DNA of 64,000 nucleotides, taken from IMG/VR virus record IMGVR_UViG_3300022241_000068; one strand, written 5' to 3'. The first letter of the stretch is position 1; each line of letters opens with the position of its first letter. Below are positions 28,436-64,000 of the stretch, one piece after another. This stretch comes from an uncultured virus (IMG/VR IMGVR_UViG_3300022241_000068). Taxonomy: Duplodnaviria; Heunggongvirae; Uroviricota; Caudoviricetes. The position numbers and the translations under genes were made by a program. Under the pieces are notes generated by a model. That model was not told the DNA's origin and did not search any database. It saw only the letters and a program-made list of their open reading frames with translations.

Positions 28436-29929
28436 TTAAACAGCAAATTCAAAATAAACAGAAAGCCCTTGAGGAGTTCCAGCAGTAGCAGAAGTTCTTA
28501 TTTCAAGAACATTACCTGTAGATACTACAAAAGTATTCGATGTTGTTGAATTATGAACGTTATCTGTTAATACAGTGCTCATGCTTGTAGAGACAGTATC
28601 TTTATACAAAGTTATTGTTGTAGTATCTGTCGGTGCTGCTGTTGTATATATTCTACCACCGAATTTTGTACAAGTTTTTCCATTTAAATTGGAAGGTACT
28701 ATAAAATATATAGGTTGATTAGATGCATTTGTTATAGTAGTAGTACTCTCTACAAGATTTAAAGAATAAGAAATTACTTCATATCCAGGACCTTGAGTAC
28801 CTTGTGAGCCTTGGTTACCTTGAGTTCCTTGCGTTCCTTGGCTTCCTTGTGATCCTTGACTTCCCTGTGCACCATTACTTCCTTGAGCTCCAGTAGCTCC
28901 TTGAGATCCAGTGGATCCTTGAGCGCCCTGGGTTCCTGCATTACCTTGAGGACCTTGAGCACCTGCTGAACCCTGAGCTCCTGTAGCACCCTGTGCTCCT
29001 ACTGCTCCTTGTAAGCCTTGGGCTCCAGTAGCACCTTGAGCTCCCTGAGCTCCAGTAGTTCCCTGATCACCTTGAGGACCACCAGCATCACCTTGTGCAC
29101 CAATTGCCCCTTGTGCTCCTTGAGTACCACCTGGAGTACCAGCAACACCCTGAGAACCTTGTGCTCCCTGAGAACCAGTTGCACCTTGTACTCCTTGAGT
29201 ACCCTGTGCACCCTGTGCACCTTGTGTTCCTTGTGAACCCTGTACACCATCATTCCCTTGAGGGCCTTGTGCTCCTTGATCTCCTGTTAAACTCATGGTA
29301 AATAATTTACCTAAAGTTACAGTTGCAGGACCTGATGTATCATAATCATTCCCATCAGAACAATTTACACACCATATATTATATTGAAAAGAGGCTTCTA
29401 AGGTTGGATCTATATAAGATGCGCTATAAGAACCTGTAGCTCCATCAAAATCATTTATAATTAAGTTATCTTCTGAGCCACCTACTACTCTATATTCAGT
29501 AGTACATGAGCTACATGGAGTATCATTTGTAGATACATTTCCACATACACATCCTATTTCATCAGTAGCACCAGCTACAGGAGTTGTAAATTCTACTTCT
29601 AAAGTCTCTTCTAATACATTATTAGAAACAGCTGTATCACAAACAAAAGCTATTGTTGCTAACAAGTTTCCTGGTAACAAACTAATATCTGATACTAAAA
29701 AAGTAATATTTACTTCAACAGTTTCTCCAGAAGAAAAAGAACTTCCCCAGCTAAGAGTATTAGCTGCATATGAAACAGGATTTTTACTAGATGTAACACT
29801 TTGATATGTTAATCCAGGAATACTAGGAATGGTAACAGTAGCAGCACATGGTGCTCCTGCTGACTTAGTTATGGAGAATTTCCAAATAACTATGTCACCA
29901 TTATTTTGAACTTTATTAGGTAATAGCAT
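28436..29929 (-). CDS. Collagen-like fibre protein with N-terminal DUF11/Ig-like domain
   Basis: ~55 G-X-Q triplets; N-terminal 'GDIVIWKFSIT...PGLTYQS'. Confidence 0.8.
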   Translation of the reverse strand: MLLPNKVQNNGDIVIWKFSITKSAGAPCAATVTIPSIPGLTYQSVTSSKNPVSYAANTLSWGSSFSSGETVEVNITFLVSDISLLPGNLLATIAFVCDTAVSNNVLEETLEVEFTTPVAGATDEIGCVCGNVSTNDTPCSSCTTEYRVVGGSEDNLIINDFDGATGSYSASYIDPTLEASFQYNIWCVNCSDGNDYDTSGPATVTLGKLFTMSLTGDQGAQGPQGNDGVQGSQGTQGAQGAQGTQGVQGATGSQGAQGSQGVAGTPGGTQGAQGAIGAQGDAGGPQGDQGTTGAQGAQGATGAQGLQGAVGAQGATGAQGSAGAQGPQGNAGTQGAQGSTGSQGATGAQGSNGAQGSQGSQGSQGTQGTQGNQGSQGTQGPGYEVISYSLNLVESTTTITNASNQPIYFIVPSNLNGKTCTKFGGRIYTTAAPTDTTTITLYKDTVSTSMSTVLTDNVHNSTTSNTFVVSTGNVLEIRTSATAGTPQGLSVYFEFAV

Positions 29930-29941
29930 TATTATTTATAT

Positions 29942-30451
29942 TTATGATTGTATAAAAATCTCAGTAGGACCAGGATCAATAGAAATTTCTGGATCAACAT
30001 TTACACACACTTGTGTACAAGGATCACATTTTTGATATGACTCACAAAGTATTCCTTTACAAACATTCTTTATGTAAATAACAACGGAACCATAATCAGA
30101 TTTGAAATTACATTCTCCTTTACATTGTCCATAAATAGTTATTTCTACTCTCTCATTACCTACTGCAGTATTGCTTGTAGTGAAAGTTAATCCACTGCTA
30201 TTTATAGCATTTACAGTAATTAAATCAGGATGAGAATTAGAATAAACTTTAAAAGATAATATATCTGGTGAATCACAATCTATATCAAAGCAATCAAAAG
30301 GAACAAACCCTGTATTACCACATGGTCCTACAGAATCACATTCCGCAACAAGTATATGCCCTAATCTAAAACAATCTGTTTTTGTAGGACAAGGTGTGCC
30401 TGGAGTATAATTTCCAACACAAGTACATGGGTCATAGTATGGGCAGGCCAT
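29942..30451 (-). CDS. Cys-rich structural protein
   Basis: 169 aa with many Cys. Confidence 0.55.
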   Translation of the reverse strand: MACPYYDPCTCVGNYTPGTPCPTKTDCFRLGHILVAECDSVGPCGNTGFVPFDCFDIDCDSPDILSFKVYSNSHPDLITVNAINSSGLTFTTSNTAVGNERVEITIYGQCKGECNFKSDYGSVVIYIKNVCKGILCESYQKCDPCTQVCVNVDPEISIDPGPTEIFIQS

Positions 30452-38198: not shown

Positions 38199-40802
38199 TT
38201 ACTTAGAAACTGACTTTTTTCTTGCTGCTATTCTTTTTACTTCAATTTCTTTGTCTTTAGTCTTAGATTGCTCTAATAGTTTTTTAAATTCAATTTCTTT
38301 TTGTGTTTTCAATTTTTCAAATTCTAATTTAGATTTTTCATCCATATCACTATATTTAAGTTCAATCTCTAGCATTTTAACTTCCATCTCTTTATTAAAC
38401 TTAAATAGATCAGCTTCTATCTTCATTTGTTCTTTTTCATATTCATCATCTAATTGATTTAGATTAATATCTTCTTGTCTAGCAAACCTTGTACTTTCAA
38501 TTTCTGCTTGCTTTTCTCTGGACATTAACTCATTAGCCTGTTTTAATAATTCAAAGTCTTGTTGCATTTTCTGAAGCTGTTGTTGAATTTCTGCTTGTTG
38601 CTGCATCTGCTCTTGTTGAGCTTGTTGCTGTTCTGCTTGCTGTTGCTTCATTCTTTCTTCAGCACCTTCTGCAATATTCATTATATCTGCACCAGACTTA
38701 GCCCATTGTAATCTAATAAGTTCAGGAAATGAGATAAGACCATTTTGGATCATGGATTGTGCTTGCTGTCTTACTTGAAGAATGTTTTCAAAATCTTGAG
38801 AAGAATTTCTGACTTTTATAGCTAATTCAGATCTCCATAACATTTCCCAATCAATATCTAATTCTGCTACTGACATATCATCAAGGACATAAGTCTTGAT
38901 AGGTGGATTATCTTTAAACGCTACTCTAGCAACATTTATAAGAACATTCATTAAATTTTCTACTACTTTATTATGAGTATTAAATAGATCATAAGTTTGA
39001 TAAGAAGATTGCATTATATTCTGCTGGTTATTAGTAACACTGACAGAAGATTGCTGCATACCTAACCTGGAAGGATTATAACTCATTGATAATGCAACCT
39101 GGTTCTTTATGAACTCTAAGTATTGTAGTTTTCCAGCTAAGTCTGATATTGTAGATAAATCCAGAGATTTAAAGATCTGAGCATCTGCTGGAGTTACTCC
39201 TTCTTGTTGTAGATCAATAGGAATTATCTTTCCATACTTGGCCATTAAAATAAATTTCTGCCAAGACCAATTTTTAGGTTTTGCATGGAAAGAAGTTAAA
39301 AACACCTTACCCATGTCAGTAGCTTCTAATTCATGGATTTTTGCTAACTGTACATTAAACTTATATTGCCAAGGTTTACCTAAATCCATTGGAGCAACAT
39401 TTTTTGAATTACCCATTAACTTTGAGTATTGAGCTCCTATATAAGGTAACTTAGTATCCCAAGGATTACTTAAAGATTTATATTGATAAGGTACAGGTCT
39501 TTTATTTAAATAGATAGAATCTGCTCCACTTCCAATTCTTTCACATTCCCAAACTTCTGGAACCCAAGCTTCATATTCTTTTATATCACCATTTAAAGGA
39601 TTAAACTGATAAGATTCATCAACCCAAAAAGAAGTTTTTTCTTTGGTTTTTGGATCTATTCTTTTTATTTGCTTTAATCTTCTTAAAGCTTTCCAAGTGA
39701 TGTGCACATGTCTGATATCTCCAGACTTAACTGCTGATGAACCACCACCTAATAAGTTTCTTAAAAATTCTTGGCCTTCTTGAGTTTGTACTTGAGGTGC
39801 AGTTTCTAAATATGTAGGATTAGAATATATTTGGTAATCTATTACTTGCTGCATAGGATTCATTATTCCTTGAGAAGCATAGTAATCTAATTTCTTTTTT
39901 ATGTCTTTTTTCTTACCTATTTCATCCCCATGCCAATTGTAGATATCTGAATACATTACATACTGCTCATACTTAGCAGCAACACCTTCTTCAATAAACA
40001 TAGAATTAGGTCTTCCCAAATGATAAAAACCCATTGGATTAACTAATTCTATAAAAGGCATATTATGTCTAATACCTACCCTATATATTTCTTCTCCTGT
40101 AATTATAGCATGTTTAAAACCTTCATCTGTAACATATTTAATATCTAAGTAATCTGATAAGAAATCTATTAATTTTTGAGCTTGAGCTTCAGATGGAGAT
40201 TTATAATCTTTACGCATATAACTATTAATCTCTTTTGGAGTCATAGATTCAATCTTATCTCCAATGTCTACTTGCATTTGCTGTTGTTGTTCTGGAGATA
40301 ATTTGTAAGGATCCTCTATTTTATTCTCCATCATATACTGTTGAGTAACTTGCTCTTGTAAAGGAGCTATTACTCTTTGATGTATGCTCTCTTGTAGAAG
40401 AGAGAGTCTTTTAGCTTTTCTATCATTTATACTATAACCTGAAGAATCAAATGCTATGGGAGTAAAAGGTCTTAATTGCTGTTCTCCTACTAAAGCTTTG
40501 GCAATCTGATCAATGATAGGATGATGTTGAATACCTTCATATCCTGCAGTAATACCTTCTTCTAAAAGTTCAGAATGATCTTCTCCTTGAAAAGATTTCA
40601 TTGCTTCTTTTCCATGTCCATTATATAGTTGATAATTCATGTTTAACCTCTCAGAACGATCTTTATCATTAAGAGGTGAATACATATTATCTATGTATTC
40701 TGCGCATTTTTCTGCCCATTCAAAATCATTTGCTTTCTTTTTATCCCAAGAAATGCGTTGATTAAAAATATAGGAATTTGAAAATATGTCATTGTTAAGC
40801 AT
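38199..40802 (-). CDS. Portal protein
   Basis: 867 aa; 'NYQLYNG', 'HHPII...LVGE..RPF', 'WVPEVWE..RIG', Q-rich C-terminal coiled coil; follows TerL. Confidence 0.9.
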   Translation of the reverse strand: MLNNDIFSNSYIFNQRISWDKKKANDFEWAEKCAEYIDNMYSPLNDKDRSERLNMNYQLYNGHGKEAMKSFQGEDHSELLEEGITAGYEGIQHHPIIDQIAKALVGEQQLRPFTPIAFDSSGYSINDRKAKRLSLLQESIHQRVIAPLQEQVTQQYMMENKIEDPYKLSPEQQQQMQVDIGDKIESMTPKEINSYMRKDYKSPSEAQAQKLIDFLSDYLDIKYVTDEGFKHAIITGEEIYRVGIRHNMPFIELVNPMGFYHLGRPNSMFIEEGVAAKYEQYVMYSDIYNWHGDEIGKKKDIKKKLDYYASQGIMNPMQQVIDYQIYSNPTYLETAPQVQTQEGQEFLRNLLGGGSSAVKSGDIRHVHITWKALRRLKQIKRIDPKTKEKTSFWVDESYQFNPLNGDIKEYEAWVPEVWECERIGSGADSIYLNKRPVPYQYKSLSNPWDTKLPYIGAQYSKLMGNSKNVAPMDLGKPWQYKFNVQLAKIHELEATDMGKVFLTSFHAKPKNWSWQKFILMAKYGKIIPIDLQQEGVTPADAQIFKSLDLSTISDLAGKLQYLEFIKNQVALSMSYNPSRLGMQQSSVSVTNNQQNIMQSSYQTYDLFNTHNKVVENLMNVLINVARVAFKDNPPIKTYVLDDMSVAELDIDWEMLWRSELAIKVRNSSQDFENILQVRQQAQSMIQNGLISFPELIRLQWAKSGADIMNIAEGAEERMKQQQAEQQQAQQEQMQQQAEIQQQLQKMQQDFELLKQANELMSREKQAEIESTRFARQEDINLNQLDDEYEKEQMKIEADLFKFNKEMEVKMLEIELKYSDMDEKSKLEFEKLKTQKEIEFKKLLEQSKTKDKEIEVKRIAARKKSVSK

Positions 40803-43800
40803 ACCAGTTGTTTTTTTGGGGATGTACAGTTCTCACACGTGTTTTAAAAAAATTGTTTAAGTCATTATAAGGGTCTTCTTTTTTATCATCTTCTTTGATT
40901 TCAACATCTCTTTCTTGTGATAACCAAAGTACCAATAACTTCAAAGAAGATACATGGTCATAGTTACCATCTCTATCATATGATTGTAATTCTCTAATTA
41001 TTCTTAAAGAATATAATTTATCTAAACCTAATAACAAGACACCATCATCTAACTTTTTCCAAGGCTCTAATAACATTTGTCTTATTAATTGTTCACAATG
41101 TATAGATAAGGGTCTTGTCATTGTTACTCCATACTCATATTTATGAGCGTAATTTATACCACCTTTCTTTATTGCTTCATATGGACAGATTTGTAATTTA
41201 TGTACAAAACCATTCATTTTACAATAATTTATAAATCCAGGTAAGTTATTTTCTACTAGTATCATTGAGTTATAATAAGTAGCAAGTTTGATAGCCACTT
41301 CATGTATGTCATCTACTTTATCATATCTACATAACATCTCTGCAACTATGGTATCCTGCATACCTGCATTCCAAGACTCTTCTGCAAAACCTTTATATAC
41401 TAAAATAGATGCTAATGAAGTTCCTCCACCATCATCTTTTACAGGGTCATAAACTACTTTATAAAGAGATCTTCTATATGTTGGATTAGGAATATTATCA
41501 GGAGGATGTTCATATACTACAATTGCAGAATTTAGATTTGCTTTATATTGATCAAGATTCATATGTTGAATAGGTCTTGATTTACGCCTAGGCCCTAAAT
41601 CCTCTTTCCACCTAACAGATTTCTTATCTACATCATCCCATTCTAAATCCCCTATAGAAGCATATATATCAAATAAATTTTTAGTTTCTATTTCAGCTTC
41701 TCTTTGTCTTAATTTAGCTGTTGGGAATAAATTAGAAGTAGATGATAAAAACATCTCAGAAGGCACTAATGGTCTTGCCATCATATACCCATCTAATGCC
41801 ATAGAGTTAGATGCTTGTTCTTTTCTTTTTCTTTCTAGTAACTCCTGCTCTAAAGCTGCTTCTATATTTGTATTACCATTATGATCTTTAAATACGTTAT
41901 TACTATAATAAGCAGGAATAAAGCATCCTATAGGTCTAGATCTGTTTTCCCATAAATCAGGATAAGGTACAAAATCATATGTTTCTGGATCTTCAAATAT
42001 AATCTTAGAATCATTAATCTTATCTATGTTACCACCTGTATTATGTGTTTGAATACCATTAGCTAAATAACAATGATTACCAAAAGCTTTTAAATTATAT
42101 ACTTCTTGATCACCTATATTTTCTACAGCAACAATAGTTTCAAATCTTAAATTTTTTACTTTATCGTAATTCTGTTTAGTCCTATAATTGTCTTTAGTAT
42201 TATGATAAATTTTATCTAACTTCTCTTGTTTGTGTTTTACTAATAAATTAATATTTTCATAAAATCTTATTAAGCTTAATTTATCCTTAATATAGAGATT
42301 GTAAGTTTGGTATTTACCATTAGCAATTTTTGTCTTTCTTGGCTCTTCTATTCTTATTTTAGAATGTATTCCTAATTTATTTAATAGATAGAATAAATCA
42401 TATACTAATAATCTACTTATTGAAGTATACTTTATAGTTGAGTATTTAGTTTTTTCATTAAAATATATACAACCATCTCCATCAAATAGTCCTGCTATTA
42501 ATTTACAAACATCCTCTTTTGAATAAGATTGAATATTTTCTGGTAATCTTTTATCTAACTTGGTTTGACCCATTATCCCTAAATTCCTTAACTCAGGGAT
42601 TACTTCTAATATTCTTTCTTTTCTTAATATTTTACTAGTTTTAGTAAGTTTAGGTTCTTCTTGTACTTTTGTTTTATGATTAGAATGAATATAATTCCAT
42701 ACTTCTTCGTCTGAATTCATAATTTTAGGCATTTGCCCATTACCATAAGTACCATCAGACATTAACATTCCTACTAAATAAGGATCAAACATCCTTTTAT
42801 CTGACCAAATATCAACTTTATCTATAACTCCAATTACATCCCCTGGAAATAACATTTGAGTTTCAAAAAATTCAAAGTCTTTTCTTAATAAACCATTGGG
42901 TCTTCTTTTTTTAGTATATATAGGATGATCATATGAACAATTTAGAACCCTACCAGAATTAGTAGTTATTTTGTAACACTCTGTTAACTCCCTACCATTT
43001 CTTTCTTCAATATCTTGTTTTAATAAACCAGTTTCTGAATCATGAGATAATATACCATCTTCTACTTTAAGATCTTCTATGTTTTTAAACTCTCCTGAGT
43101 TTGTCCATACTTTAGAACCTTTGCATACGCAACCTAAATATAAAGCAGATCCAAATTTATTCTTTCTAATCATACATGTTTCATTAGCAGCATGTATTTT
43201 CAATAAATCTGAGGATAATCCACACTCTTCTACCACCATAATCTGAGGCCTAGTACCTACTGCAGCTTCTGCGTTATCAGCGTAAGCAACATGTATCAAC
43301 TTTGTACCAGTACCTTTGTTTAACCAGATCTTTCCTTCTTGAGCTCTATATTCATGTCTATATGGGGAATCTGTATTATTTGGTCCAGTTTTACCTGTAC
43401 AGTTATTATAAAAATAACCAGGTATAAATTCATCTCCTTTACCCCATGCACCAGGCCCTGTCTTTAAATGTTCCTGGATTGTAAGAAACTTCTTTATTAA
43501 TTCATTTGACTTAGAAGTCTGAGAAGATCCTACAAGTAATTCTGCAGCAGCTGGATTATCTAAATAACTTTCATCATAATATTTCTTACCATAAAAATTG
43601 AAAGTTTGTGCAAGAATTCCTGATACACTATAAGACTTTCCTGTAGCACGGGAAGTTAACAAGAAAAAGTTTTTAGCATCATTATCGTATATAGGTTTAC
43701 CTAAAGGATTAGAAAATGTCTTGTACAGATATTCTTTAGATTCTATATATTTTTTATATTCTCCATCCTCCTTTTTTAAGAACTCCAAACTCTTTAGTCT

Positions 43801-44220
43801 GACTTCTTCTTGAGGAGTTAATTTTATATTGTTTTCAATTTTATAAACTAATCTGTTACATGTATATTCTTCATCACCTTGAAATCCTGAGAAACCTAAA
43901 GCAGTTAACCATCCATAATGTATTAACCAATCTATATCTCTAAGATCAGGGTTAATCATCCTAGTGGTCTTACCCCTTTCATCTTCATCAGCTATTATAC
44001 AATAGTTTATATAAAAATATAAGGAAGGGGGCATATATCGCCACCCTCCCTTATTATCAGCTTTATCTAATCCCCAAAAGCCTTCTAAACATTTTATTTC
44101 TTCTTTTTCCCAATAGTTAGAATAATCAATACTATCTGGATGTAATATTGGATGTTCTCTATTTATAAATGGTTTAATATCATAAATATCTGGGAATAGC
44201 TTTACAGCTTTAAAGCTCAT
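40795..44220 (-). CDS. terL: Terminase large subunit (intein-containing)
   Basis: Walker A 'TSRATGKSY', Walker B 'MVVEECG', G|TGG motif, nuclease 'YDPV', 'LVENN', 'GNYDHVS'. Confidence 0.92.
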   Translation of the reverse strand: MSFKAVKLFPDIYDIKPFINREHPILHPDSIDYSNYWEKEEIKCLEGFWGLDKADNKGGWRYMPPSLYFYINYCIIADEDERGKTTRMINPDLRDIDWLIHYGWLTALGFSGFQGDEEYTCNRLVYKIENNIKLTPQEEVRLKSLEFLKKEDGEYKKYIESKEYLYKTFSNPLGKPIYDNDAKNFFLLTSRATGKSYSVSGILAQTFNFYGKKYYDESYLDNPAAAELLVGSSQTSKSNELIKKFLTIQEHLKTGPGAWGKGDEFIPGYFYNNCTGKTGPNNTDSPYRHEYRAQEGKIWLNKGTGTKLIHVAYADNAEAAVGTRPQIMVVEECGLSSDLLKIHAANETCMIRKNKFGSALYLGCVCKGSKVWTNSGEFKNIEDLKVEDGILSHDSETGLLKQDIEERNGRELTECYKITTNSGRVLNCSYDHPIYTKKRRPNGLLRKDFEFFETQMLFPGDVIGVIDKVDIWSDKRMFDPYLVGMLMSDGTYGNGQMPKIMNSDEEVWNYIHSNHKTKVQEEPKLTKTSKILRKERILEVIPELRNLGIMGQTKLDKRLPENIQSYSKEDVCKLIAGLFDGDGCIYFNEKTKYSTIKYTSISRLLVYDLFYLLNKLGIHSKIRIEEPRKTKIANGKYQTYNLYIKDKLSLIRFYENINLLVKHKQEKLDKIYHNTKDNYRTKQNYDKVKNLRFETIVAVENIGDQEVYNLKAFGNHCYLANGIQTHNTGGNIDKINDSKIIFEDPETYDFVPYPDLWENRSRPIGCFIPAYYSNNVFKDHNGNTNIEAALEQELLERKRKEQASNSMALDGYMMARPLVPSEMFLSSTSNLFPTAKLRQREAEIETKNLFDIYASIGDLEWDDVDKKSVRWKEDLGPRRKSRPIQHMNLDQYKANLNSAIVVYEHPPDNIPNPTYRRSLYKVVYDPVKDDGGGTSLASILVYKGFAEESWNAGMQDTIVAEMLCRYDKVDDIHEVAIKLATYYNSMILVENNLPGFINYCKMNGFVHKLQICPYEAIKKGGINYAHKYEYGVTMTRPLSIHCEQLIRQMLLEPWKKLDDGVLLLGLDKLYSLRIIRELQSYDRDGNYDHVSSLKLLVLWLSQERDVEIKEDDKKEDPYNDLNNFFKTRVRTVHPQKNNWYA
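42040..43131 (-). mobile_element. Intein with LAGLIDADG homing endonuclease in TerL (364 aa)
   Basis: YLG|CVCKGSKV...CSYDHP...LVGMLMSDG...LIAGLFDGDG...VYNL...NGIQTHN|TGG. Confidence 0.92.
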
Positions 44221-50201: not shown

Positions 50202-51974
50202 ATGAATATACTATTTAGTAAAAAAGACCATAAATATTCCCAAGGGGATATAATATACACATCTGTTAGTAAAAAGATTACTAACTATAAGAATGAGTTC
50301 AATAAGGAACATTGGAGTACTTACAAGGCATTAGAAGCATTAATACCTAATTTTAAAGATGTCAAAAAGGGTTGGGATGTTAGTAAACAAGATTTTATAT
50401 TGTATGCTAGTACTTTAGTAGATGAGAAAGAATTAGCCTTAAAAGTACTTGAAATTTTAGATAACTGGGATAATGAGACTAATAAAAGTATAAATAAGGG
50501 GAATTTCTATCACGAAATAAAAGAGAATGATAGTTATAAGAGAGGTTATGAAATAAATCCTTTTACAAAGGAAAAATTTAAAGTAAATACGACAAAGCAT
50601 TCTGGAGAAGATAAAGGTTCTTTGATAACTAACTTATATGAATTAGAAGATGGTTATTATCCAGAACTAATACTTTGGAATGATAAAGTTAGAGTAGCTG
50701 GACAAGCAGATAAGGTATTTATTGAAACTATTAATGATATTAGATATGTAGATGTCGATGATTGGAAAGGTTTAGCATTGAATACTCCTATAGCTACTAT
50801 ATTTGGTTGGAAAAATATGGAGGACATAATTGTGGGAGATATTATATTTGATGGAAATGGAGTAGCAACTAGAGTACAACATGTATCAGAAATACATTAT
50901 AATCCTTGTTACAAGATATTATTTGATACAAATGATGAACTTATTGCAGATCATGAACATAGATGGGTAGTAACAAAAAGGAATAACAAAGGTGATTATA
51001 CTAATGACGAAATTACCACCGATGAAATGTTTAATAGATTTCAGAATGGAGAAGTTATAAGAATAAAATGTGAAAGTTTAAAAACAGAGGACATAGATCT
51101 TCCAATTGATCCATATGTATTAGGATTATGGTTAGCAGATGGTAATCGTTCATGTGGAACTATAACTTGTGTAAATAATGATATTTGGGATGAAATTGAA
51201 AGACGAGGTTATAAAACTAGTAGTAATCATAATATCAAATTTGGAAAAGCAGAATCTAGGACTATATTTGGAATAAGAGGAAAACTTTCTGAATTAGGTA
51301 TTCTTGGAAATAAACATATTCCTGAAATATATCTAAGATCTTCCCATACACAAAGATTAGATTTACTAAGAGGGCTTATGGACGGAGATGGTTTTTATCA
51401 TAGAACTAGAAAGAGATGTATTATGAGTACTACTAAAGAATGGCAAGCTAATGCAGCAATGATGCTGATTTCTTCATTAGGATTTAAACCAACATTGATA
51501 AATAGTAAAACTTCAGGATTTGGTAAGAAAAATATTCCAACATATGATGTATGTTTTTCAAGTATTGAAAATCCTTTTTTAGTCAGAAATAAAGATTATA
51601 ATATTAAAGATGATAAGTATTCTAAATATAGATATGTAAAAAACATATCTAAAATAGATACTGTACCAACAAAATGTTTAGCCGTAGAATCTGAAGATCA
51701 TACTTATTTAGCAGGACACAGTCTTATTAAGACCCATAATACTAATAAGCAGATAAAAACTAAGGGGTTTAAAGGTCAAAGAATGAAGTCACCTTTAAGT
51801 CATTTACAAGATTGTAACTATGTACATTATAATCTGCAGATTAGTTATTATGCTTGGATGATGGAACAGTTTGGATACACTGTCAGGAATCTAAGTTTTC
51901 ACCATTATAATCAAATGTATAAATTAAACTATTTAAAAGATGAGATTGAAAAAATTTCAATAGTAACTAGATAA
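50202..51974 (+). CDS. PD-(D/E)xK (Cas4/RecB-like) nuclease, intein-containing
   Basis: 'YTSVS', 'GN..H', 'PE', 'VAGQAD', 'DDWK|TNK', 'YNLQISYYA'. Confidence 0.85.
   Translation: MNILFSKKDHKYSQGDIIYTSVSKKITNYKNEFNKEHWSTYKALEALIPNFKDVKKGWDVSKQDFILYASTLVDEKELALKVLEILDNWDNETNKSINKGNFYHEIKENDSYKRGYEINPFTKEKFKVNTTKHSGEDKGSLITNLYELEDGYYPELILWNDKVRVAGQADKVFIETINDIRYVDVDDWKGLALNTPIATIFGWKNMEDIIVGDIIFDGNGVATRVQHVSEIHYNPCYKILFDTNDELIADHEHRWVVTKRNNKGDYTNDEITTDEMFNRFQNGEVIRIKCESLKTEDIDLPIDPYVLGLWLADGNRSCGTITCVNNDIWDEIERRGYKTSSNHNIKFGKAESRTIFGIRGKLSELGILGNKHIPEIYLRSSHTQRLDLLRGLMDGDGFYHRTRKRCIMSTTKEWQANAAMMLISSLGFKPTLINSKTSGFGKKNIPTYDVCFSSIENPFLVRNKDYNIKDDKYSKYRYVKNISKIDTVPTKCLAVESEDHTYLAGHSLIKTHNTNKQIKTKGFKGQRMKSPLSHLQDCNYVHYNLQISYYAWMMEQFGYTVRNLSFHHYNQMYKLNYLKDEIEKISIVTR
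50769..51740 (+). mobile_element. Class-3 intein with LAGLIDADG endonuclease (324 aa)
   Basis: DWK|GLALNTPI...ADHEHRW...LGLWLADG...LRGLMDGDG...PTKCLAV...IKTHN|T; W-C-T triad present. Confidence 0.88.
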
Positions 51975-51976: not shown

Positions 51977-52189
51977 ATGAAGAAGTATCATAAATATAAC
52001 ATAATGTTTTGTAATCAAGATCTTTTATATGCACTTGAAACAAGCAAAGCTGTACCAGTATTAGAAGAAGAATATGTATATTTAACAGATGAAGAATTTG
52101 AAAGATTATGTGTAATGATGAATTCAGAAGATATAGACACTAGACACTTAGCTTTCGAAATCTTTAAACAAAAGGTCAAAGAGGGATAA
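51977..52189 (+). CDS. Small protein with HEAT-like hairpin
   Basis: RLCVMMNSEDIDTRHLAFEIFKQ. Confidence 0.6.
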   Translation: MKKYHKYNIMFCNQDLLYALETSKAVPVLEEEYVYLTDEEFERLCVMMNSEDIDTRHLAFEIFKQKVKEG

Positions 52190-52190: not shown

Positions 52191-52484
52191 ATGGATGTAT
52201 TTGAACATTATATTTATTATTTAATAGGATCTCGTAAAAAAGATCATTTAACAATTGTAGCTGGAACAGTATATTCAAGTATATACCAAACTGAAGGAGT
52301 ATCTATGAATATACCTTTTATGTATAGGCATTCTATAGAATTAAAAAGTGAGAATGCGTCAATGTTATTTGAAATGTTGAGATCTGACAATAAAGAAACA
52401 AAACAATTAGCAATAGAAACCTTTAAACAAGAAGCATATGCCCAAGAGCAGAGTAAGAAAGAATCACAAAAAGAAAATATCTGA
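52191..52484 (+). CDS. Small protein with HEAT-like hairpin
   Basis: MLFEMLRSDNKETKQLAIETFKQ; paralogous to the upstream ORF. Confidence 0.6.
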   Translation: MDVFEHYIYYLIGSRKKDHLTIVAGTVYSSIYQTEGVSMNIPFMYRHSIELKSENASMLFEMLRSDNKETKQLAIETFKQEAYAQEQSKKESQKENI

Positions 52485-53772: not shown

Positions 53773-53801
53773 AAACCCTCAGCCATGACTGGGGGTTTTT
53801 T
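53773..53801 (+). terminator. Intrinsic terminator
   Basis: AAACCCTCAG-loop-CTGGGGGTTT followed by a T run. Confidence 0.75.
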
Positions 53802-53818: not shown

Positions 53819-56800
53819 ATGTATAAATATAAAATCACATTAAATAATAATGTATATAGATTGATAGTAACCGTTATTCATACAGGATATGCAGAACATC
53901 ATAGAAATTCTACGCATCTTCAATCTTTAGAGCATACTCTTATGATATTAACTAAATATTCATGAAATATGAAAATAGTATTTCAAAATCATAAAAAGCC
54001 AGAGTGGGATCTCCCAATACCAGGTTATTTTTTTCATATAAAAGATCCGCGTATAGATAGTAATAATTACCACACTTATGTTCTAATAGGTCATTATCTA
54101 ATACATAGAAATTTAATGCAGGGAAATTATATGCTATCAGTATTAGAACAACAAATTATAAATAGTAAAATAATAAATTATTTATGAAATATACAATAAT
54201 AAAATGTAAAAATAATATAAGATGCTATTATGATTTAAAAAGAGAAGATGGCACTTTTGTCATTAGAGATATGGTATATATTCCTTATGTAGAAATATTT
54301 ATATAACATGAAAAAATATAGAAAATATACAAAAAAACACATACTTGAAGCAGATTTCAGAAAAGCTCGTTATGGTCTTACAGGTTTTCCTTTTACATAT
54401 AATTTCAGACTATATGAGTTAAATGTAAAGTTTAATGACAAGAAAAAGCATATTAAGAAAGCTTTTGTAAAAAGTTACATAAGTTTTAAAAATGCTGAAT
54501 ATTATATTAAAGACATGTAAAAATTCTAATAACTATAAAAATTATTATGTTAATATTAATAGGAGATAATTATGAAATATTTGGAGGTAATGTACAAGAT
54601 GACTTTATACATATTGAAACTATAATATGGAATTGCAAAAAATATTTACATTATAATAAATTTAAAATTAGAAACTATGAAAATACATAAAAAAAGAAAA
54701 TATTGTATAACTACCAAGTATTTAAAAGTAGGAGAAATGAGTCCTACTCTAGCTTATTATATTAATAAAGATGTTATTATTGCAATTAATGTTCATATAA
54801 TAGATCATTACACTCTTAATATTTTAGGATACGATATTAAATGGGTTAGAGTTAAAGAATATGCATTGATAAGTGTATTTGATAGTTTTAATGAATGTGA
54901 AAATTTTATAAAACATGATAAGATACAAAATAATAAAAGAATCTAGTGATTCTATTTATACTTATGCAGAAGTATATATAAATAAAACTTTAATATGCAT
55001 AATTCCTGACTATCTCATGACTGATTGGGGTGAGATTAATTTTCAATGGTTTGAATATAATGTTTTAAAACGTGTTAACATGTCAAATATCCATAAGCTT
55101 ATAAGTATTCATAGCATGGATATTGCTGATTCTATACATTATGATAATTTTTAAAGATTATGAAAATACGAAATAAAAGAGTGCATACTAAATTATATAA
55201 ATATGATATATCATATTATATATATGAAATTGAAAATTATACTGTACCAGGTCAATTTACTAAACTTAAATATCTTGAAGAATTCTATGAAAAATATATT
55301 ATTACAAAACAAAGTAATGGATGAAACTAAGCGTTTAAAATATCGTCTCTATATAAGAGATATGGAATCAAATAAATTGATTGATTATTCAGGATTAGTT
55401 TTCGTACATTTATCGAATTGCGAAAGTATTATAAAAAATTATGGACCCAAAAATAAAAATAATAAACGAAAAGAAAGCTAAAGGAGTATATCTTTATGGA
55501 ATTGAAGAACCATCTAAGATTTTTTCTCTGAAGATAATCGAAGGATTTATACTAGGAATATATAAATATCGCCGTATATGAAATGGAAAATAGTAAAGGC
55601 AAATAATATGTCTAGCAATATGTCTCTTTCTAAAGGTCCCCGAATATACGTGTTTAACACTGAAGATTTTTCTTATATAGAAATTTGTATTGAATATTGT
55701 GATTAATGAACATGAAAAAATATAAAATAAACTGTGATAAACGTTTTGGTATATATACACTATATGTACGAGATGTTGAAGTGAATGAATTCTGGAGTTT
55801 CCATTTGGATATTGTTGAGAAACATCTAAAACACATAAATGAATAAGAAATTTAAAATAAAAACTAGTTGTTCATCTAATCATTTTCTTCACTATGAATT
55901 ACATACTGAACATATGTTTGAAATGAAACATTATGAATTAAGGAGTATAGAAATCCGTATATTTGACATAGCAAGATGGGATGAGTTTTATCTCTATATA
56001 AATCGGTTTAAAAAAAAGTATAAGACAAATGAAATATAAAATAGTTAATAGCAAAAGGTTTGTTAATGTTATCTCCGAGTGCCCATATAAATATATATAT
56101 AAAATTGATACAATCAGATATTCACCTACTTTTGTAAATCTTAGAAATGCGGAATATAGGATATTATTTGAATATAGTGTAAATTTAGAAAATGAAGTAC
56201 ATAATAAGAAATCAATATAAAGGATACACGTCTGTGTATAATATTTATATTTTATGTTTGGAAGATGTAAAATTCTTTCCGACATATCATAAACTTAGTG
56301 TATTAGAGATAAATATGTTAGTACATGAAAAAAAAATCAAAACAACATGAGATTTAAAATAAGTAATTACAAACCAGGAGTGAGACTTATGATAAAATAT
56401 TATTTTATTTTAGATGGAGATTATTCTGATTATTACTTATTTATTATTGAAAAAAAAATTATTCGAATAACAAAAGGAGATCATGAAATATAAAATATAT
56501 AATAATAAAAAATATACCATAAATAATAACAAAGTGTTATTAACAAATCTGCAAAAATATTATTATATTTTAAATGAAGAGTATCCTGGTTATAACTTAG
56601 ATGTTATTGAGGGTTTAATTATTCAAATAGAAAGGAAACATAATGAAATATAAAATAAGTAATTATAAAGCTGTATTAAGACCTGTAAAACATTTATATA
56701 TTTTATATAAAGATTTATATTCTGCTTATAACTTAGACTTAGATGTTATTGAAAAGCAGATTATTAGAATAGAAAGAAAAAGAAAATATAATGAAATACA

Positions 56801-58519
56801 TAATAAAAAATTTTAAATCTGGTAAAAGTAATAAGTTTATATTTACATTATCAGAGTCTGCATTTATGACTAATCACCTATATATTGTTGAATGGCACAT
56901 TGAATATGGAGAATGTAATGAAATATAAGATAATAAAACGTAAGTTAAATACTATTGGCGATAGTTTCTATATAATTGAAGGAATGTCCAATGGTGTAGG
57001 ATATTATATGCTTAAACATATAGAGAGTGACATATTATACTACGAGAAAAACAAGTTTTAAAAGAAATTTATCATTAATGAAATATATAATAAAAAATCA
57101 CGGAAATATGAAATTTCCTATATATGAATATTCACTATATTTTCCAAATAAACCTAGGAAAATATTTCATCTTATTTATTTAGTTAGTGTAGAAAGAAAA
57201 ATAAAAGAATATGCGATATTTAATAAGTAACTTAACAGATCATCCTTTTTATTACTGGCGTATAAAATCATTCAATGGTCGTGTATATAAATGTTGTATA
57301 TCTATATCTGAGGCTGAAGACGTACTTTTATTATATCAAAAATTATTAAAAAATGAAATATAAAATTTATAATAACTATGTGCTAATTGATAGATCTATC
57401 GGAAAATATACTGATAGAAACTCGTACCATTTGATGTTATTTGGATTAAAAAAGAGTCCTTATAGAGCACCAAATATCTCTTTTATAGAGAGTGTCATTA
57501 AATCAGGTATCATGTTAAAAAGTTAATATATGAATAAATTTAGGATAAGAAAAGAGGGCGATGGATATTCAGGATATTACGATAAATGGTCAGATACTGA
57601 TTTTAACCTTTGGTATAGTGTGCATCTTAAAACTATAGAAAATTTGATTAAATCAACAATACAATATGAAAGACAAGATAATTATAAGAAATAGTAAAGC
57701 CAATGGGGCCAATAAATGGCTTATATCACTATTTGGTAATATGAGTGAATATATCTATTCTATAGATATGATTCCATCAGAAACAGAAAATTTTATATAT
57801 ATATATATAAGCAGTGTAGAAAAATATCTACGAAATCATAGAGATGAAAAATAAGATAATTATAAAAAATTGTAAAGTTAGGGATTCGTGGGATATAGTT
57901 GTTATCACTCTACTTGGGAGTGGAAATAAGTATCTCTATTATAGAGACGTGAACCCAGTAGATACAGATTTTGGAAAATTTGTATTTTTATCAAGTATAG
58001 AAATAAAACTTTTGAAATGAAAATAATTATTAGAAATATAAAACCCACAAGACATCTCAGATATCTACCATATACCAGAAGATTTAGTAGGAATATTGAT
58101 AGTCATAAATATAAATATTATATAAAAGGAAATGAAAATAACCAGTTTGTCTATTTAGCCAATTTAGAAAAATTTAAATTAAAATAATAAATGAAGATAA
58201 TAAAGACAAATGAGGAGATTTATAAGTATCACTTATATTTAAATCATAAATATCAATTTCATCCTGATAATCTTAATGAAATGTTTCCTCAGGAAACGCC
58301 TACTAAGTATGTTACACTTGAACAGCTTGAGAAATGTATAGTAAAATATATAATAATTAAACCTATATGAAATATAAGTTAGAAAATCACATAACTATTA
58401 TAGATAATAAAAAAACAACATTCTATAGCATTAAGAATGTAGGTCTTATAAAAAGACAATCAATAAATATTATTGAAGAATGGATAAAAATATTAGAGCG
58501 TAGTTTAAGAAATATCTAG
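53819..58519 (+). other. Tandem array of ~29 coupled microprotein genes (40-89 aa) of one divergent family
   Basis: Starts at 53819, 53969, 54184, 54308, 54547, 54677, 54915, 55160, 55287, 55441, 55578, 55712, 55839, 56029, 56192, 56347, 56483, 56643, 56791, 56918, 57078, 57211, 57353, 57530, 57666, 57844, 58017, 58191, 58367. Shared MKY[KI]I..N start and [LFI]xx[IVLA]ExxI end. Confidence 0.8.
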
Positions 58520-58838
58520 TTTAACCAATGGCTACGCCACTGGTTATATATAAGATATGTCCTTATTCTCACCTGATATTCTCCTAGAAGTTGTGCCTGC
58601 AGGCCATGATCTTTATAAGATTTTAGGCTTCCGAGGTTTCAGTATCCCTTTACTTACCATTAGGTAGGGAGACTAGGATTATTTTACAGTATTCTCTAGA
58701 GATCCATATAAACTAGAATTTCTTCTTCAAATTTTGGGCTAGAGAATGGGGAACTTTATCCGCATCTTGAATAATTGGGGTAAAGTTACTATAAATGAGA
58801 TTATAAAACAAGTAATTAATTAAAAATATTGAAAAAAA

Positions 58839-60529: not shown

Positions 60530-60666
60530 CAAGTTGAGGTAGGCTTGGAAGTAGCCATCCTTTAAAGAGTAATCACCCCTGCATAAGGGTAAAATAGGGT
60601 ACAGAAACGCAATGAAAATTGAAAAGCAAAAACCCAAAGAGGACTTTAGGTGTAACAACACACTTG
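60530..60666 (+). ncRNA. 23S rRNA H43/H44 (uL11-binding GTPase centre)-like element with a 79-nt insertion
   Basis: CAAG..GAGGTAGGCTTGGAAGTAGCCATCCTTTAAAGAGT [insert] GTGTAACAACACACTTG, compared by eye with recalled 23S 1051-1108 sequence. Confidence 0.7.
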
Positions 60667-62672: not shown

Positions 62673-64000
62673 ATGAGTAAAGTTAAACTGATTAATACAC
62701 GTATATATTCTAAAACTGGAAGATATAATAATTGTAGAATATTAATAGAACTTGAAAACAGATTTTATCCTTTTCCTGGTATAAATAACGCAGAATATGC
62801 TGTAGAAAAAGGTTTAGAGTATTTTGAATATTATCGAGTAACAAAGGAAGATTATGAGTAAATATTTATTACTAAGAAGACCAACTAATAAAGAAACCTT
62901 TCAGCAATTATATTTTATAAAAACTTATGATAATAGATATTTCCCATGTTTTTTTCTTGATGAAAATAAGTTATTAAATTGTTATTACAGAAATTTTCCT
63001 AATTATCCTTTCGATTTATTAGACGAAAAAACTTTTAAAGCTATATATGAAGAATAAAGTTACATTTCTCAATCGTTATAAAAATCATAATCTTTCTCAT
63101 GTACATACTATTGAAATAGATGGAGCATATTTTGCCTTTTCTACAAGTGATATTAGCGATATAGAAAATATATTTATAGCAGCTAATGATTTTGAAATTA
63201 AACAATATTTAAAGGATAATTATATTAAATCTGATGAAGAAAATTTCAAAGCTAGGTATTAAAAAGAAAATTAAACTTATTAATTATTTTAAAGGTCGTA
63301 AATTATCTGAAATATATACTATTAAAATGGATGAATTATATTTTCCATTTGAATTTGAAGGAATTGAAATTCAAGATGTAGAAAACATTTTTACATACGC
63401 TAGTGCTACTACTCTTGAATTTAAAGAATACTTAAAAAGAAATTTTACTGACATTAGTGAAGAATATTACAGTATAAACATATAGATTTTTATTTTTCAT
63501 AATTTGGGCTAAACAGGAGAAGGAGAAATCTTTCTCCTAGTTTAGTTTTAAAACTAATAAATGGAAAAACATAAATTCATTAGAATAGCAAAAGCAGGTA
63601 TATTAAACTGTAAATATAAGTATAATAATTCAGAGCATACTCATTACTTTTTTACTTTAAAAAGTCTTGAAAAATTCTTAATAAGTAAAGTTACGGCGGA
63701 ATTCCTAATAATTGATCATGGCAAAGATAACTAATTCAAAAATAGAAACCAACTCTTTTGTAAGTAAAAAATTGAAATTTTAATTCATGAAAAAATATGT
63801 AATAGCTAAGAAAATAATAGAAGAGGGAATGGTAATATATGCAATAAAAAGAGATGAAGGATATGTTCCTATTTCTGTCTTAGATGAAAAAAAATTTATA
63901 GAAATTTATCATAGTAAAAAGAATTGGCATATAGTAGAAGAGCATGAGTGGAAAAATTAAAATAATTAAAAGAAAAGTAAAAAATGGTGTTATATATGCA
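62673..64000 (+). other. Second cluster of small paralogous ORFs
   Basis: ORFs at 62673, 62854, 63047, 63234, 63561-63734, 63787-63960 and 63944->end. Basic/beta N-termini, 'Y[FV]P' motif; 63047 and 63234 share D[IV]ENIF...E.K.YLK.N. Confidence 0.7.

What the first reader, a model, noticed from the sequence alone, without database searches (positions are those of the whole stretch)
53819..58519. Array of ~29 coupled, hyper-diverged paralogous microproteins (MKYKI...LxxIExxI)
Seen: 4.7 kb tiled almost without gaps by 40-89-aa ORFs, most below the ORF-track cut-off. Nearly all begin M-K-[YFW]-[KI]-I-x-N, have a central Tyr-rich strand and end in an amphipathic helix with a near-invariant Glu. 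Examples: LQSLEHTL, LSVLEQQI, FKNAEYYI, LSNCESII, LKIIEGFI, LDIVEKHL, LRSIEIRI, LRNAEYRI, LDVIEKQI, LKHIESDI, LKTIENLI, LEQLEKCI, INIIEEWI. The middles are almost unalignable. Inference: one small beta-beta-alpha scaffold amplified into a diversified repertoire, such as a panel of anti-defence or host-takeover binders, or variable adaptors docking on one partner through the conserved Glu helix. I do not recognise the family.
Basis: partly seen in the sequence, partly recalled or inferred. Interest (0 to 1): 0.88.

Follow-up and report, generated by a model that had tools for sequence, protein, structure and literature searches.

The report
Phage array of ~29 paralogous microprotein genes
An uncultured crAss-like phage from wastewater devotes 4.7 kb to about 29 back-to-back, overlapping genes for roughly 50-residue proteins that are diverged copies of one small scaffold found nowhere else; the genes are clearly kept open by selection, but what they do is still unknown.

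Summary
On the + strand, 53819-58519 is tiled by 29 ATG-ORFs of 40-89 aa (98.8% coverage). The - strand has 2 ORFs, and 500 composition-matched simulations gave at most 6. 21 of 28 junctions overlap.

A C-terminal h..hE..h motif occurs in 27 of 29 ORFs (shuffles: mean 3.8, max 12). The Glu is invariant in 25 of 25 aligned members. Leave-one-out profiles support 21 of 29 as one family, also without the N-terminus. Six ORFs (m05, m06, m07, m13, m22, m29) are not demonstrable members.

Neighbouring genes are more alike than distant ones (p=0.004). Two strain alleles are paralog chimeras. dN/dS between close copies is 0.5-1.65, yet neutral drift would close the ORFs (0 of 300 simulations).

AlphaFold models show a beta-hairpin plus a C-terminal helix (pLDDT 81 and 70). 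No Pfam, PHROG, PDB or fold relative was found. Every database hit belongs to this phage lineage.

The proteins are basic (median pI 9.3) and Tyr-rich. The function is inferred: an early or accessory binder repertoire that turns over by birth and death.

The scan has noted similar arrays in other phages (e1-5846806, e1-5710053, e1-264412). I rate it a new variant of a known kind.

The parts
53773..53798 (+). terminator-like hairpin (10 pairs, then a T-run), 20 nt before the first array gene
   Evidence: sequence seen
53819..53965 (+). m01, 48 aa, motif LQSLEHTL
   Evidence: leave-one-out 3/200 shuffles reach it
53969..54187 (+). m02, 72 aa, motif LSVLEQQI
   Evidence: leave-one-out 5/200, and 0/200 without the N-terminus; a chimeric allele with m09 exists (P0012)
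54184..54306 (+). m03, 40 aa; its body is skipped or replaced in two variant strains
   Evidence: leave-one-out 0/200; joint 54214->54301 in X4 and X6
54308..54520 (+). m04, 70 aa, motif FKNAEYYI; weak member
   Evidence: leave-one-out 42/200 at full length, 1/200 without the N-terminus
54547..54690 (+). m05, 47 aa; membership not demonstrable (motif FIHIETII in mid-protein)
   Evidence: leave-one-out 58/200 and 35/200
54677..54946 (+). m06, 89 aa; membership not demonstrable; strain-variable patch at codons 18-22
   Evidence: leave-one-out 25/200 and 51/200; SNP/indel cluster 54728-54763
54915..55154 (+). m07, 79 aa; least family-like ORF of the tile
   Evidence: leave-one-out 152/200 and 145/200
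55160..55324 (+). m08, 54 aa, near-miss motif LKYLEEFY
   Evidence: leave-one-out 1/200
55287..55481 (+). m09, 64 aa from the start MKNILLQN (54 aa if started at 55317), motif LSNCESII
   Evidence: leave-one-out 0/200; longer form called in a variant (P0148)
55441..55581 (+). m10, 46 aa, LKIIEGFI
   Evidence: leave-one-out 0/200
55578..55706 (+). m11, 42 aa, FSYIEICI; its N-terminus is found fused to m17 in allele P0005
   Evidence: leave-one-out 0/200
55706..55846 (+). m12, 46 aa, LDIVEKHL; target of the better structure model
   Evidence: leave-one-out 0/200; AF2 pLDDT 80.9
55839..56039 (+). m13, 66 aa, LRSIEIRI; has both motifs but is not statistically supported
   Evidence: leave-one-out 19/200 and 180/200
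56029..56220 (+). m14, 63 aa, LRNAEYRI
   Evidence: leave-one-out 0/200; blastp to m18 E 2e-6
56192..56350 (+). m15, 52 aa, LSVLEINM
   Evidence: leave-one-out 0/200
56347..56493 (+). m16, 48 aa, LFIIEKKI
   Evidence: blastp to m17 E 1e-8 and to m18 E 4e-8
56483..56653 (+). m17, 56 aa, LDVIEGLI
   Evidence: blastp to m18 E 4e-10; AF2 pLDDT 69.7
56643..56816 (+). m18, 57 aa, LDVIEKQI
   Evidence: 0/200
56791..56928 (+). m19, 45 aa, LYIVEWHI
   Evidence: leave-one-out 0/200
56918..57061 (+). m20, 47 aa (51 aa if started at 56906), LKHIESDI
   Evidence: leave-one-out 0/200
57078..57230 (+). m21, 50 aa, LVSVERKI
   Evidence: leave-one-out 0/200
57211..57363 (+). m22, 50 aa, ISEAEDVL; not statistically supported
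   Evidence: leave-one-out 140/200 and 21/200
57353..57526 (+). m23, 57 aa, ISFIESVI
   Evidence: leave-one-out 5/200 and 3/200
57530..57694 (+). m24, 54 aa, LKTIENLI
   Evidence: leave-one-out 0/200
57666..57854 (+). m25, 62 aa, ISSVEKYL; a frameshifted allele exists in one strain (P0151)
   Evidence: blastp to m26 E 1e-9
57844..58020 (+). m26, 58 aa, LSSIEIKL; four strain alleles with 1-5 residue changes
58017..58187 (+). m27, 56 aa, near-miss motif LANLEKFK
   Evidence: leave-one-out 0/200
58191..58370 (+). m28, 59 aa, LEQLEKCI
   Evidence: leave-one-out 0/200
58367..58519 (+). m29, 50 aa, INIIEEWI; has both motifs but is not statistically supported
   Evidence: leave-one-out 42/200 and 61/200
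58522..58546 (+). hairpin directly after the last array gene (no T-run, so not a canonical terminator)
   Evidence: centroid structure; sequence
   Evidence: scores 13.0 bits against the A1 profile; 0/300 shuffles reach it

Best explanation
What it is (shown; odds about 0.85). The block is a lineage-specific multigene family in a crAss-like (Crassvirales-related) phage of wastewater and freshwater communities. About 23-29 tandem genes encode basic, Tyr-rich proteins of roughly 50 aa. Each has an N-terminal strand (MKYxIxN), a Tyr-rich beta-hairpin and a C-terminal amphipathic helix that starts with h..hE..h.

How it is expressed (inferred from anatomy). The block lies between a terminator-like hairpin and a second hairpin. 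21 of 28 start/stop junctions overlap, so it is probably one polycistronic unit translated by termination-reinitiation coupling.

How it evolves (partly shown). It follows birth and death by tandem duplication and unequal recombination between copies. Neighbours are most alike, and chimeric m11/m17 and m02/m09 alleles exist in other strains. The 16-nt junction AATGAAATATAAAATA and the helix motif are the only conserved DNA that such recombination could use. Selection keeps every copy open and preserves the scaffold residues. The rest drifts or diversifies (dN/dS 0.5-1.65).

What it does (inferred; odds about 0.35). It is a repertoire of small cytoplasmic binders made early or in the middle of infection. 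Each copy would be tuned to a different variant of a host target (defence or takeover). The conserved strand, helix and Glu would form the common fold or a common docking face.
For: Tiling and coding signal. Overlapping junctions. Junction motif: 27 matches in the window against 12.4 expected, 19 of them in the array and all on the + strand. Family signal. Neighbours more alike: Smith-Waterman 27.9 against a permuted 24.3 (sd 1.2), p=0.004; genes two apart show no excess, p=0.48. Chimeric alleles P0005 and P0012, frameshifted allele P0151, and 1-5 residue allelic changes in m26. Strain contigs: 54.3-55.6 kb differs by 2-8%, against 0.6-0.9% in the flanks and in the 3' half of the array. 9 of the 10 listed strain SNPs in the array are non-synonymous. 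Neutral-drift simulation: at 27% change per site only 4.7% of ORFs stay open, and 0 of 300 runs keep all 29 open. Models: m12 pLDDT 80.9 (strands 8-13, 16-21 and 30-31; helix 34-45) and m17 pLDDT 69.7. No homologue outside this lineage among 1.84 billion representatives (12 hits, all own lineage) or in the word-indexed 5.8 billion (11 hits, all own lineage). No member in 160 related loci. Context: the block follows a nuclease/helicase-like gene, MazG and a DUF5856-like gene on the replication-side strand. Yutin et al. 2021 (PMC7886860, passages read) describe blocks of short ORFan genes in crAss-like phages and suspect counter-defence roles.
Against: No direct evidence of transcription or translation. 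RNA-library contigs touch the array at five places, but the tool states they cannot prove transcription. dN/dS is not significantly above 1 (the bootstrap 5-95% range spans 1 in all five pairs), so diversifying selection is not shown. Six clustered SNPs in m06 may be a single replacement event. Six of the 29 ORFs cannot be shown to belong to the family. Both structure models used the paralog alignment itself, so they are not independent. There is no anti-defence family match and no Aca-type regulator. The proteins are basic and aromatic-rich, which fits nucleic-acid binding at least as well as protein binding. The 3' two-thirds of the array is about 99% conserved between strains from different studies, so turnover is not uniformly fast.
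Confidence: 0.45

Rival explanations
1. The microproteins are small basic nucleic-acid-binding proteins that bind DNA, RNA or the ribosome. Tyr-rich beta surfaces would stack on bases, and the copies would differ in sequence or structure preference or simply add dosage.
For: Median pI is 9.3, with 25 of 29 basic, against a median of 5.8 and 10 of 23 basic for the other small proteins of the same phage (p=1.5e-4). Tyr is 9.7% against 5.2%. The best fold neighbour is a 43-residue archaeal ribosomal chain (6skg_Bo: Z 5.3, rmsd 1.4 over 39 residues). Many dsRBD-type rows appear at Z about 3.
Against: All fold scores are below the tool's own noise range (typical best Z is 7-8). There is no sequence match to any nucleic-acid-binding family. 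The array's lower GC (23%) inflates Lys, Tyr, Ile and Asn. Four members are neutral or acidic.
Confidence: 0.2
2. The array is a gene-dosage 'accordion'. One function was amplified for dosage, and the copies are now functionally redundant and drift under relaxed constraint.
For: dN/dS between close copies is 0.5-1.65, indistinguishable from 1. A frameshifted allele of m25 and deletion chimeras are tolerated in strains. Neighbours are most alike.
Against: All 29 ORFs are intact although drift at the observed divergence would close about 95% of them. Mean column identity is about 19% with a strictly kept scaffold, which points to long-term retention of many distinct copies.
Confidence: 0.15
3. 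The proteins are HicB-N-like (degenerate dsRBD, strand-strand-strand-helix) antitoxin decoys that neutralise host toxin or abortive-infection nucleases.
For: HicB/UPF0150-type chains recur among the weak fold rows for both models (1wv8_A Z 3.9 and 3.6, 2yzt_A 4.0, 3bid_A 3.7, 6g1n_A 3.3, 5yrz_C, 3k6q_A, 2dsy_A). A BFVD row is named HicB-like antitoxin.
Against: Z of 3-4 is within noise. hhalign of the family profile against E. coli HicB gives probability 0.1%. No Pfam HicB-type match in 0 of 25 members. No HicA-like neighbour.
Confidence: 0.05
4. The block is not a set of genes. It is a non-coding AT-rich repeat region, such as an origin or regulatory repeats, whose open frames are incidental.
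For: Very low GC (23%); a conserved 16-nt DNA motif recurs; expression is not proven.
Against: ORF coverage is 98.8% on one strand only, against at most 18.6% in 500 simulations. Third-position composition is identical to that of real genes. No tandem DNA period of gene length was found. Conservation is at protein-pattern level. ORFs are kept open against drift. Alleles in other strains stay open.
Confidence: 0.03

Closest known systems
Blocks of short lineage-specific genes in crAss-like phages (Yutin et al. 2021, PMC7886860; passages read)
   Same: The phage is crAss-like, and the block consists of short genes with no homologues outside the lineage. Those authors suspected a counter-defence (Acr) role but predicted none.
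   Different: Here at least 21, and up to about 29, of the genes are paralogues of one scaffold in strict tandem with overlapping junctions. The passages I read do not describe such paralogy.
Multigene families and 'genomic accordions' of large DNA viruses (ASFV MGF110/360, poxvirus K3L amplification). Recalled knowledge; the ASFV comparison was also suggested by earlier finding e1-5846796.
   Same: Tandem duplication, divergence and copy loss of host-directed accessory genes. Neighbours are most alike, and strains differ through recombination between copies.
   Different: This is a bacteriophage. The units are about 160 bp and encode about 50 aa, the reading frames are coupled, and no link to host range has been shown.
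Anti-CRISPR / anti-defence gene arrays
   Same: Small, fast-evolving, lineage-restricted genes clustered in one operon.
   Different: Acr loci usually hold unrelated genes plus an HTH regulator (Aca). Here there is one family, no regulator was found, no library match exists, and the proteins are basic.
Hyperplastic regions of T4-type phages and host-takeover modules (SPO1, T5 pre-early). Recalled knowledge.
   Same: Dense runs of small early ORFan genes in variable regions.
   Different: Those genes are mostly unrelated to one another and each has its own promoter or stem-loop. Here one family is amplified without intergenic space.
HicB N-terminal / UPF0150 strand-strand-strand-helix domain
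   Same: Similar size and order of secondary-structure elements. Both have a conserved acidic residue at the start of the helix (for HicB this is recalled).
   Different: There is no sequence or profile similarity, fold Z is only 3-4, and there is no toxin partner.

Membership tests
crAss-like phage short-gene block (Yutin 2021) | The genome is a crAss-like / Crassvirales-related phage | tested here: met
   Portal matches phrog_6547 (E 1e-87) and TerL matches phrog_6681. Portal tblastn hits 138 phage records, led by crAss-like cr4_1, FpV4-type Flavobacterium phages, and Bacteroides and crAss phages, at 25-28% identity. The relationship is therefore distant.
crAss-like phage short-gene block (Yutin 2021) | A run of short genes without homologues outside the group | tested here: met
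   Pfam 0 of 25; PHROGs gave only 7 single hits, the best at E 0.003. All 12 and all 11 database hits belong to the same lineage.
Virus multigene family evolving by birth and death | Tandem paralogues, with neighbours most similar | tested here: met
   Pairwise E values down to 4e-10. Adjacency test p=0.004.
Virus multigene family evolving by birth and death | Copy gain or loss between strains | tested here: inconclusive
   Chimeric alleles P0005 (m11/m17) and P0012 (m02/m09) imply loss of 5-6 genes each, but their contigs could not be fetched. Strains X4 and X6 carry nearly the full array.
Anti-CRISPR / anti-defence locus | Match to a known anti-defence protein family | tested here: inconclusive
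   No match in PHROGs, Pfam, PADLOC or NCBIfam. No dedicated Acr library was available.
Anti-CRISPR / anti-defence locus | Adjacent Aca-type HTH regulator | tested here: not met
   Pfam scan of 21 flanking and atypical ORFs found no HTH family.
Anti-CRISPR / anti-defence locus | Inhibits a defence system | not testable with these tools
   Needs an infection or plasmid-challenge assay.
HicB N-domain / UPF0150 | Sequence-profile similarity | tested here: not met
   hhalign of A1 against E. coli HicB gives probability 0.1%. Pfam 0 of 25. PDB sequence search gave 0 hits at E<=10. Only one HicB sequence was used, not a deep alignment.
HicB N-domain / UPF0150 | Fold similarity above background | tested here: inconclusive
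   Z 3.3-4.0 for several HicB-like chains, within the noise range stated by the tool.
Non-coding tandem DNA repeat | Head-to-tail DNA copies with a gene-length period | tested here: not met
   TRF found only periods of 2-24 nt.

The most novel reading that the evidence does not exclude
The array is a germline-encoded repertoire of mini-binders. Each roughly 50-residue copy presents different loop and sheet surfaces on one strand-hairpin-helix scaffold, and each neutralises a different variant of a host immunity or takeover target. The 16-nt overlapping start/stop junction serves two purposes: it couples translation, and it provides the homology that lets unequal crossing-over add, delete and hybridise copies. 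That would be a bacteriophage counterpart of the multigene-family 'accordions' of large eukaryotic DNA viruses, recurring in several unrelated phages seen by this scan.
Probability: 0.2. Interest if true: 0.85.

Novelty: new variant of a known kind. Interest (0 to 1): 0.6.

Why it matters
Phage genomes are full of tiny unannotated genes, and most gene callers and databases miss ORFs of this size. This block shows that about 4% of a 122-kb phage genome (4.7 kb) can be one amplified, fast-changing microprotein family under clear selection to stay open. If the members are a binder repertoire against host factors, the array would be a compact natural library of about 50-residue scaffolds and a marker of phage-host arms races in Bacteroidota of wastewater systems. 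Together with similar arrays noted elsewhere in this scan, it suggests that tandem microgene families are a recurrent but, as far as my four literature searches for such arrays show, undescribed feature of large phages.

Tried and rejected
1. DNA-level tandem repeat: TRF found no gene-length period.
2. Known RNA families: only the tRNA was found.
3. blastn of the region against 50,697 phage records: no match.
4. Relatives through flanking genes: the one IMG/VR hit is the same phage (1 mismatch in 12,243 bases). 160 more distant loci found through the 590-aa gene hold no family member; the best foreign E value was 0.85. The closest relative, L092, has the upstream gene but not the array.
5. Fold searches: Foldseek against PDB gave nothing below E 4. 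BFVD gave nothing below E 0.3. The VIA wide search gave at best Z 4.5 and 5.3.
6. ESM Atlas: best score 0.83, which is chance level.
7. HicB lead: not supported by sequence.
8. CsrA, Sso7d/chromodomain-like and RHH ideas came from recall only. No Pfam match supports them and I dropped them.
9. Homodimer prediction for m12: no verdict (score 0.01, controls not run). This says nothing either way.
10. The second small-ORF run (62673-63960) as a branch of the same family: hhalign probability 1.9%, with only 10 N-terminal columns aligned. Only 63561-63734 qualifies.
A double-junction DNA pattern found 3 AT-rich giant-virus MAG contigs with no family member and no blastn similarity, so these are chance hits.
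12. Stop-codon recoding: two public gene calls (P0136, P0138) read TGA as Trp and fuse m01 to m02. The phage's large genes are intact under table 11, and the array genes sit in all three frames, so I treat these calls as artefacts.
13. RNA-library contigs: partial cover of the array and flanks. This is no proof of transcription, and uncovered parts mean nothing.
14. The rRNA-like stretch had no blastn match in E. coli genomes.
15. No whole genome is held for the window.


Full report
CONTEXT. The window is part of an uncultured tailed phage. The - strand from 1 to about 49.5 kb carries structural genes: a portal (phrog_6547, E 1e-87), a large terminase (phrog_6681), collagen-like tail fibres and giant virion proteins. 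The + strand from 49.6 kb carries replication-side genes: a 590-aa nuclease/helicase-like protein with a LAGLIDADG-like insert, a MazG pyrophosphatase and a DUF5856-like protein.

Portal tblastn finds 138 phage records, all below 60% identity. They are led by a crAss-like phage, FpV4-type Flavobacterium phages, and Bacteroides and crAss phages at 25-28% identity. The phage is therefore a distant crAss-like relative, and its host is probably a member of Bacteroidota (inference). No whole genome is held for the window. The same proteins occur on public contigs of up to 122,489 bases. Near-identical DNA occurs in 20 listed runs from 10 studies of sludge, wastewater and freshwater.

29 ATG-ORFs of 40-89 aa (median 54) tile the + strand from 53819 to 58519. 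ORFs of at least 40 aa cover 98.8% of the + strand and 11% of the - strand (2 ORFs). 500 first-order Markov simulations gave a mean of 1.27 and at most 6 ORFs, with at most 18.6% coverage. Third-codon-position composition in the array frames (A .404, C .069, G .105, T .422) is practically identical to that of the larger + strand genes (.405/.066/.107/.422).

21 of 28 junctions overlap. Six share the 11-nt overlap in which the upstream gene ends ...N-E-I-stop inside the downstream M-K-Y-K. Five share ATGA. The 16-nt junction sequence, allowing up to 3 mismatches, occurs 27 times in the window against 12.4 expected (largest shuffle 24). 19 of these lie in the array, all on the + strand. A terminator-like hairpin (53773-53798) lies 20 nt before the first gene, and another hairpin (58522-58546) lies directly after the last. 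One polycistronic, translationally coupled unit is the simplest reading. This is inferred, not shown.

ONE FAMILY, MOSTLY. All-against-all blastp gives clear pairs: m17/m18 4e-10, m25/m26 1e-9, m16/m17 1e-8, m16/m18 4e-8 and m14/m18 2e-6. In a leave-one-out test, a profile was built from the other 28 ORFs and each real protein was scored against 200 shuffles of itself. 17 of 29 beat every shuffle and 21 of 29 fall in the top 5%. With the first 10 residues removed, the figures are 12 of 29 and 21 of 29, so the signal is not only the N-terminal motif.

The motif h..hE..h is present in 27 of 29 ORFs. 2000 shuffles gave a mean of 3.76 and a maximum of 12. The two exceptions are near misses. Among the phage's other small genes, 6 of 24 have the motif. 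A 25-member alignment has one invariant column, the Glu.

m05, m06, m07, m13, m22 and m29 pass no statistical test. m07 is the least family-like, and these six may be very diverged members or different genes. The rest of that second small-ORF run is not demonstrably related (hhalign probability 1.9%).

HOW IT EVOLVES. Neighbouring genes are more similar than random pairs. Smith-Waterman on residues 9 to the end gives 27.9 against a permuted 24.3 (sd 1.2), p=0.004. Genes two apart show no excess (p=0.48). This is the signature of local tandem duplication followed by fast divergence.

Public protein sets contain strain alleles. One is a hybrid with the N-terminus of m11 and the body of m17 (P0005). 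Another is a hybrid of m02 and the C-terminal half of m09 (P0012). There is also a frameshifted m25 (P0151) and four m26 alleles with 1-5 changes. The hybrids imply recombination between paralogues that removes 5-6 genes. I could not fetch their contigs, so copy number in those strains is inferred.

Contigs of two independent variant strains were laid on the window. They carry almost the whole array. The stretch 54.3-55.6 kb differs by about 2-8%, counting indels. The flanks and the 3' part (55.65-59.8 kb) differ by 0.6-0.9%. Both assemblies break or skip at m03. 9 of the 10 listed strain SNPs inside the array are non-synonymous, but six sit in one patch of m06.

Nei-Gojobori dN/dS for the five closest paralogue pairs is 0.53-1.65, and the bootstrap 5-95% ranges all span 1. 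Constraint is weak on average, and positive selection is not demonstrated. Random substitution at the third-position divergence of close copies (27% per site) leaves only 4.7% of ORFs open, and 0 of 300 runs keep all 29 open. Selection therefore maintains the reading frames and the scaffold positions while most other residues are free.

FOLD AND RELATIVES. AlphaFold2 was run with the paralogues as the alignment. For m12 it gives pLDDT 80.9, with strands 8-13, 16-21 and 30-31 and a helix at 34-45. For m17 it gives pLDDT 69.7, with several short strands and a helix at 39-54. These two models are not independent of the family alignment.

No solved or predicted viral structure matches convincingly. 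Foldseek against PDB gave nothing below E 4, and BFVD gave nothing below E 0.3. The exhaustive VIA search gave at best Z 4.5 and Z 5.3 (a 43-residue archaeal ribosomal chain, rmsd 1.4 over 39 residues), below the tool's stated background. HicB-N/UPF0150-type chains and dsRBDs recur at Z 3-4. I tested that lead and found no sequence support: hhalign against E. coli HicB gave 0.1%, Pfam matched 0 of 25, and PDB sequences gave 0 hits at E<=10. PHROGs, NCBIfam and PADLOC gave only isolated chance-level hits, and the ESM Atlas gave nothing above chance.

The family profile was run against 1.84 billion representatives and found 12 proteins at E<=0.001. The word-indexed search of 5.8 billion found 11 at E<=0.1. 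All are this phage's own proteins or strain alleles. None of 7,098 small ORFs in 162 fetched loci matched, apart from the two loci that are the same phage. The closest relative by the 590-aa protein (63% identity) has the upstream DUF5856-like gene but not the array. It carries a different cluster of small repeat-rich paralogues.

WHAT IT PROBABLY DOES. The proteins have no signal peptides or membrane segments visible by eye in the ORF translations. They are strikingly basic (median pI 9.3, 25 of 29 basic) and Tyr-rich (9.7%). The other small proteins of the same phage have a median pI of 5.8, with 10 of 23 basic and 5.2% Tyr (p=1.5e-4). The array's lower GC content explains part of this difference.

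I commit to the following reading. The array is a coupled operon that produces a set of small cytoplasmic proteins on one scaffold. Their variable hairpin and loops confer different specificities, and they serve host takeover or counter-defence (odds about 0.35). The main rival is nucleic-acid binding (0.2), which the charge and the aromatic content favour. Next comes a dosage accordion that is now drifting (0.15). HicB-like decoys (0.05) and non-coding DNA (0.03) are unlikely.

Yutin et al. 2021 (PMC7886860, passages read) noted blocks of short ORFan genes in crAss-like phages and suspected Acrs without predicting any. The bioRxiv version of the phi14:2 virion-RNAP paper (passages read) gives no information on such arrays. 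Four literature searches found no description of tandem microprotein families in phages. This is absence in those searches only.

EARLIER FINDINGS OF THIS SCAN. Similar arrays were noted on other DNA. One is a crAss-like phage with 29 (38-40 in sister strains) microgenes on a strand-strand-strand-helix scaffold at the end of its replication module (e1-5846806, e1-5846796). Another is a 47-gene array in a 200-kb phage (e1-5710053). A third is a roughly 20-gene array in a jumbo coliphage (e1-264412). Word look-ups with this window's DNA and one of its proteins found no shared sequence with them. I could not test whether any is the same family. They show that the kind recurs.

VERDICT. I rate it a new variant of a known kind, namely the short-gene blocks of crAss-like phages and the viral multigene families. 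The protein family has no detectable relatives outside one phage lineage.

Noticed in passing
window 62673-63960 (+): A second run of six tiled small ORFs (57-83 aa) lies directly after tRNA-Leu and reaches the window end. 63047 and 63234 are clear paralogues (E 1e-14) with a shared Y.I..D..YFPF segment. 62673, 62854 and 63787 are weakly linked to them. Only 63561-63734 belongs to the MKYKI family.
   Followed up: partly
window 51977-52189 and 52191-52484 (+): Two adjacent small genes (70 and 97 aa) are paralogues of each other (blastp E 2e-5). They have no Pfam match.
   Followed up: partly
window 60536-60573, within 59.8-60.9 kb: A stretch of about 35 nt attracts huge depth in two RNA libraries (4989 and 3210, against less than 15 elsewhere). 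The loose ends continue like conserved large-subunit rRNA (my recall of the GTPase-associated-centre sequence). The surrounding 59.8-60.9 kb shows several skips between strains. There is no Rfam hit and no blastn match in E. coli genomes. It may be a captured or mimicked rRNA fragment.
   Followed up: partly
window 40795-44220 (-) and 50202-51974 (+): The 1141-aa large terminase matches TerL profiles only at residues 728-1116, and it has an inserted segment (about 363-679) that matches helicase/endonuclease PHROGs. The 590-aa nuclease-like protein has a LAGLIDADG-like segment that is conserved in its relatives. Both look like intein or homing-endonuclease insertions.
   Followed up: no
L092 16724-16912 and 20667-21767 (+): The closest relative of the phage (63% identity in the 590-aa protein) lacks the MKYKI family. 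It carries its own cluster of 60-72-aa ORFs full of L-x-N-E-L-type heptad-like repeats, so lineage-specific small-paralogue clusters seem typical of this phage group.
   Followed up: no
window 58520-58838: A 320-nt ORF-free, GC-richer spacer follows the array. Its folding energy is only marginally better than shuffles (z -1.95). There is no Rfam match.
   Followed up: partly
proteins P0136, P0138 (public gene calls on short contigs): Automatic gene calls read the TGA stops of m01 and m02 as Trp and fuse the microgenes. This is an annotation artefact of AT-rich short contigs, and it can hide such arrays.
   Followed up: yes
window 24000-30000 (-): GC rises to 0.37-0.39 over two collagen-like tail-fibre genes (25901-28423 and 28436-29929), against about 0.30 elsewhere.
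   Followed up: no
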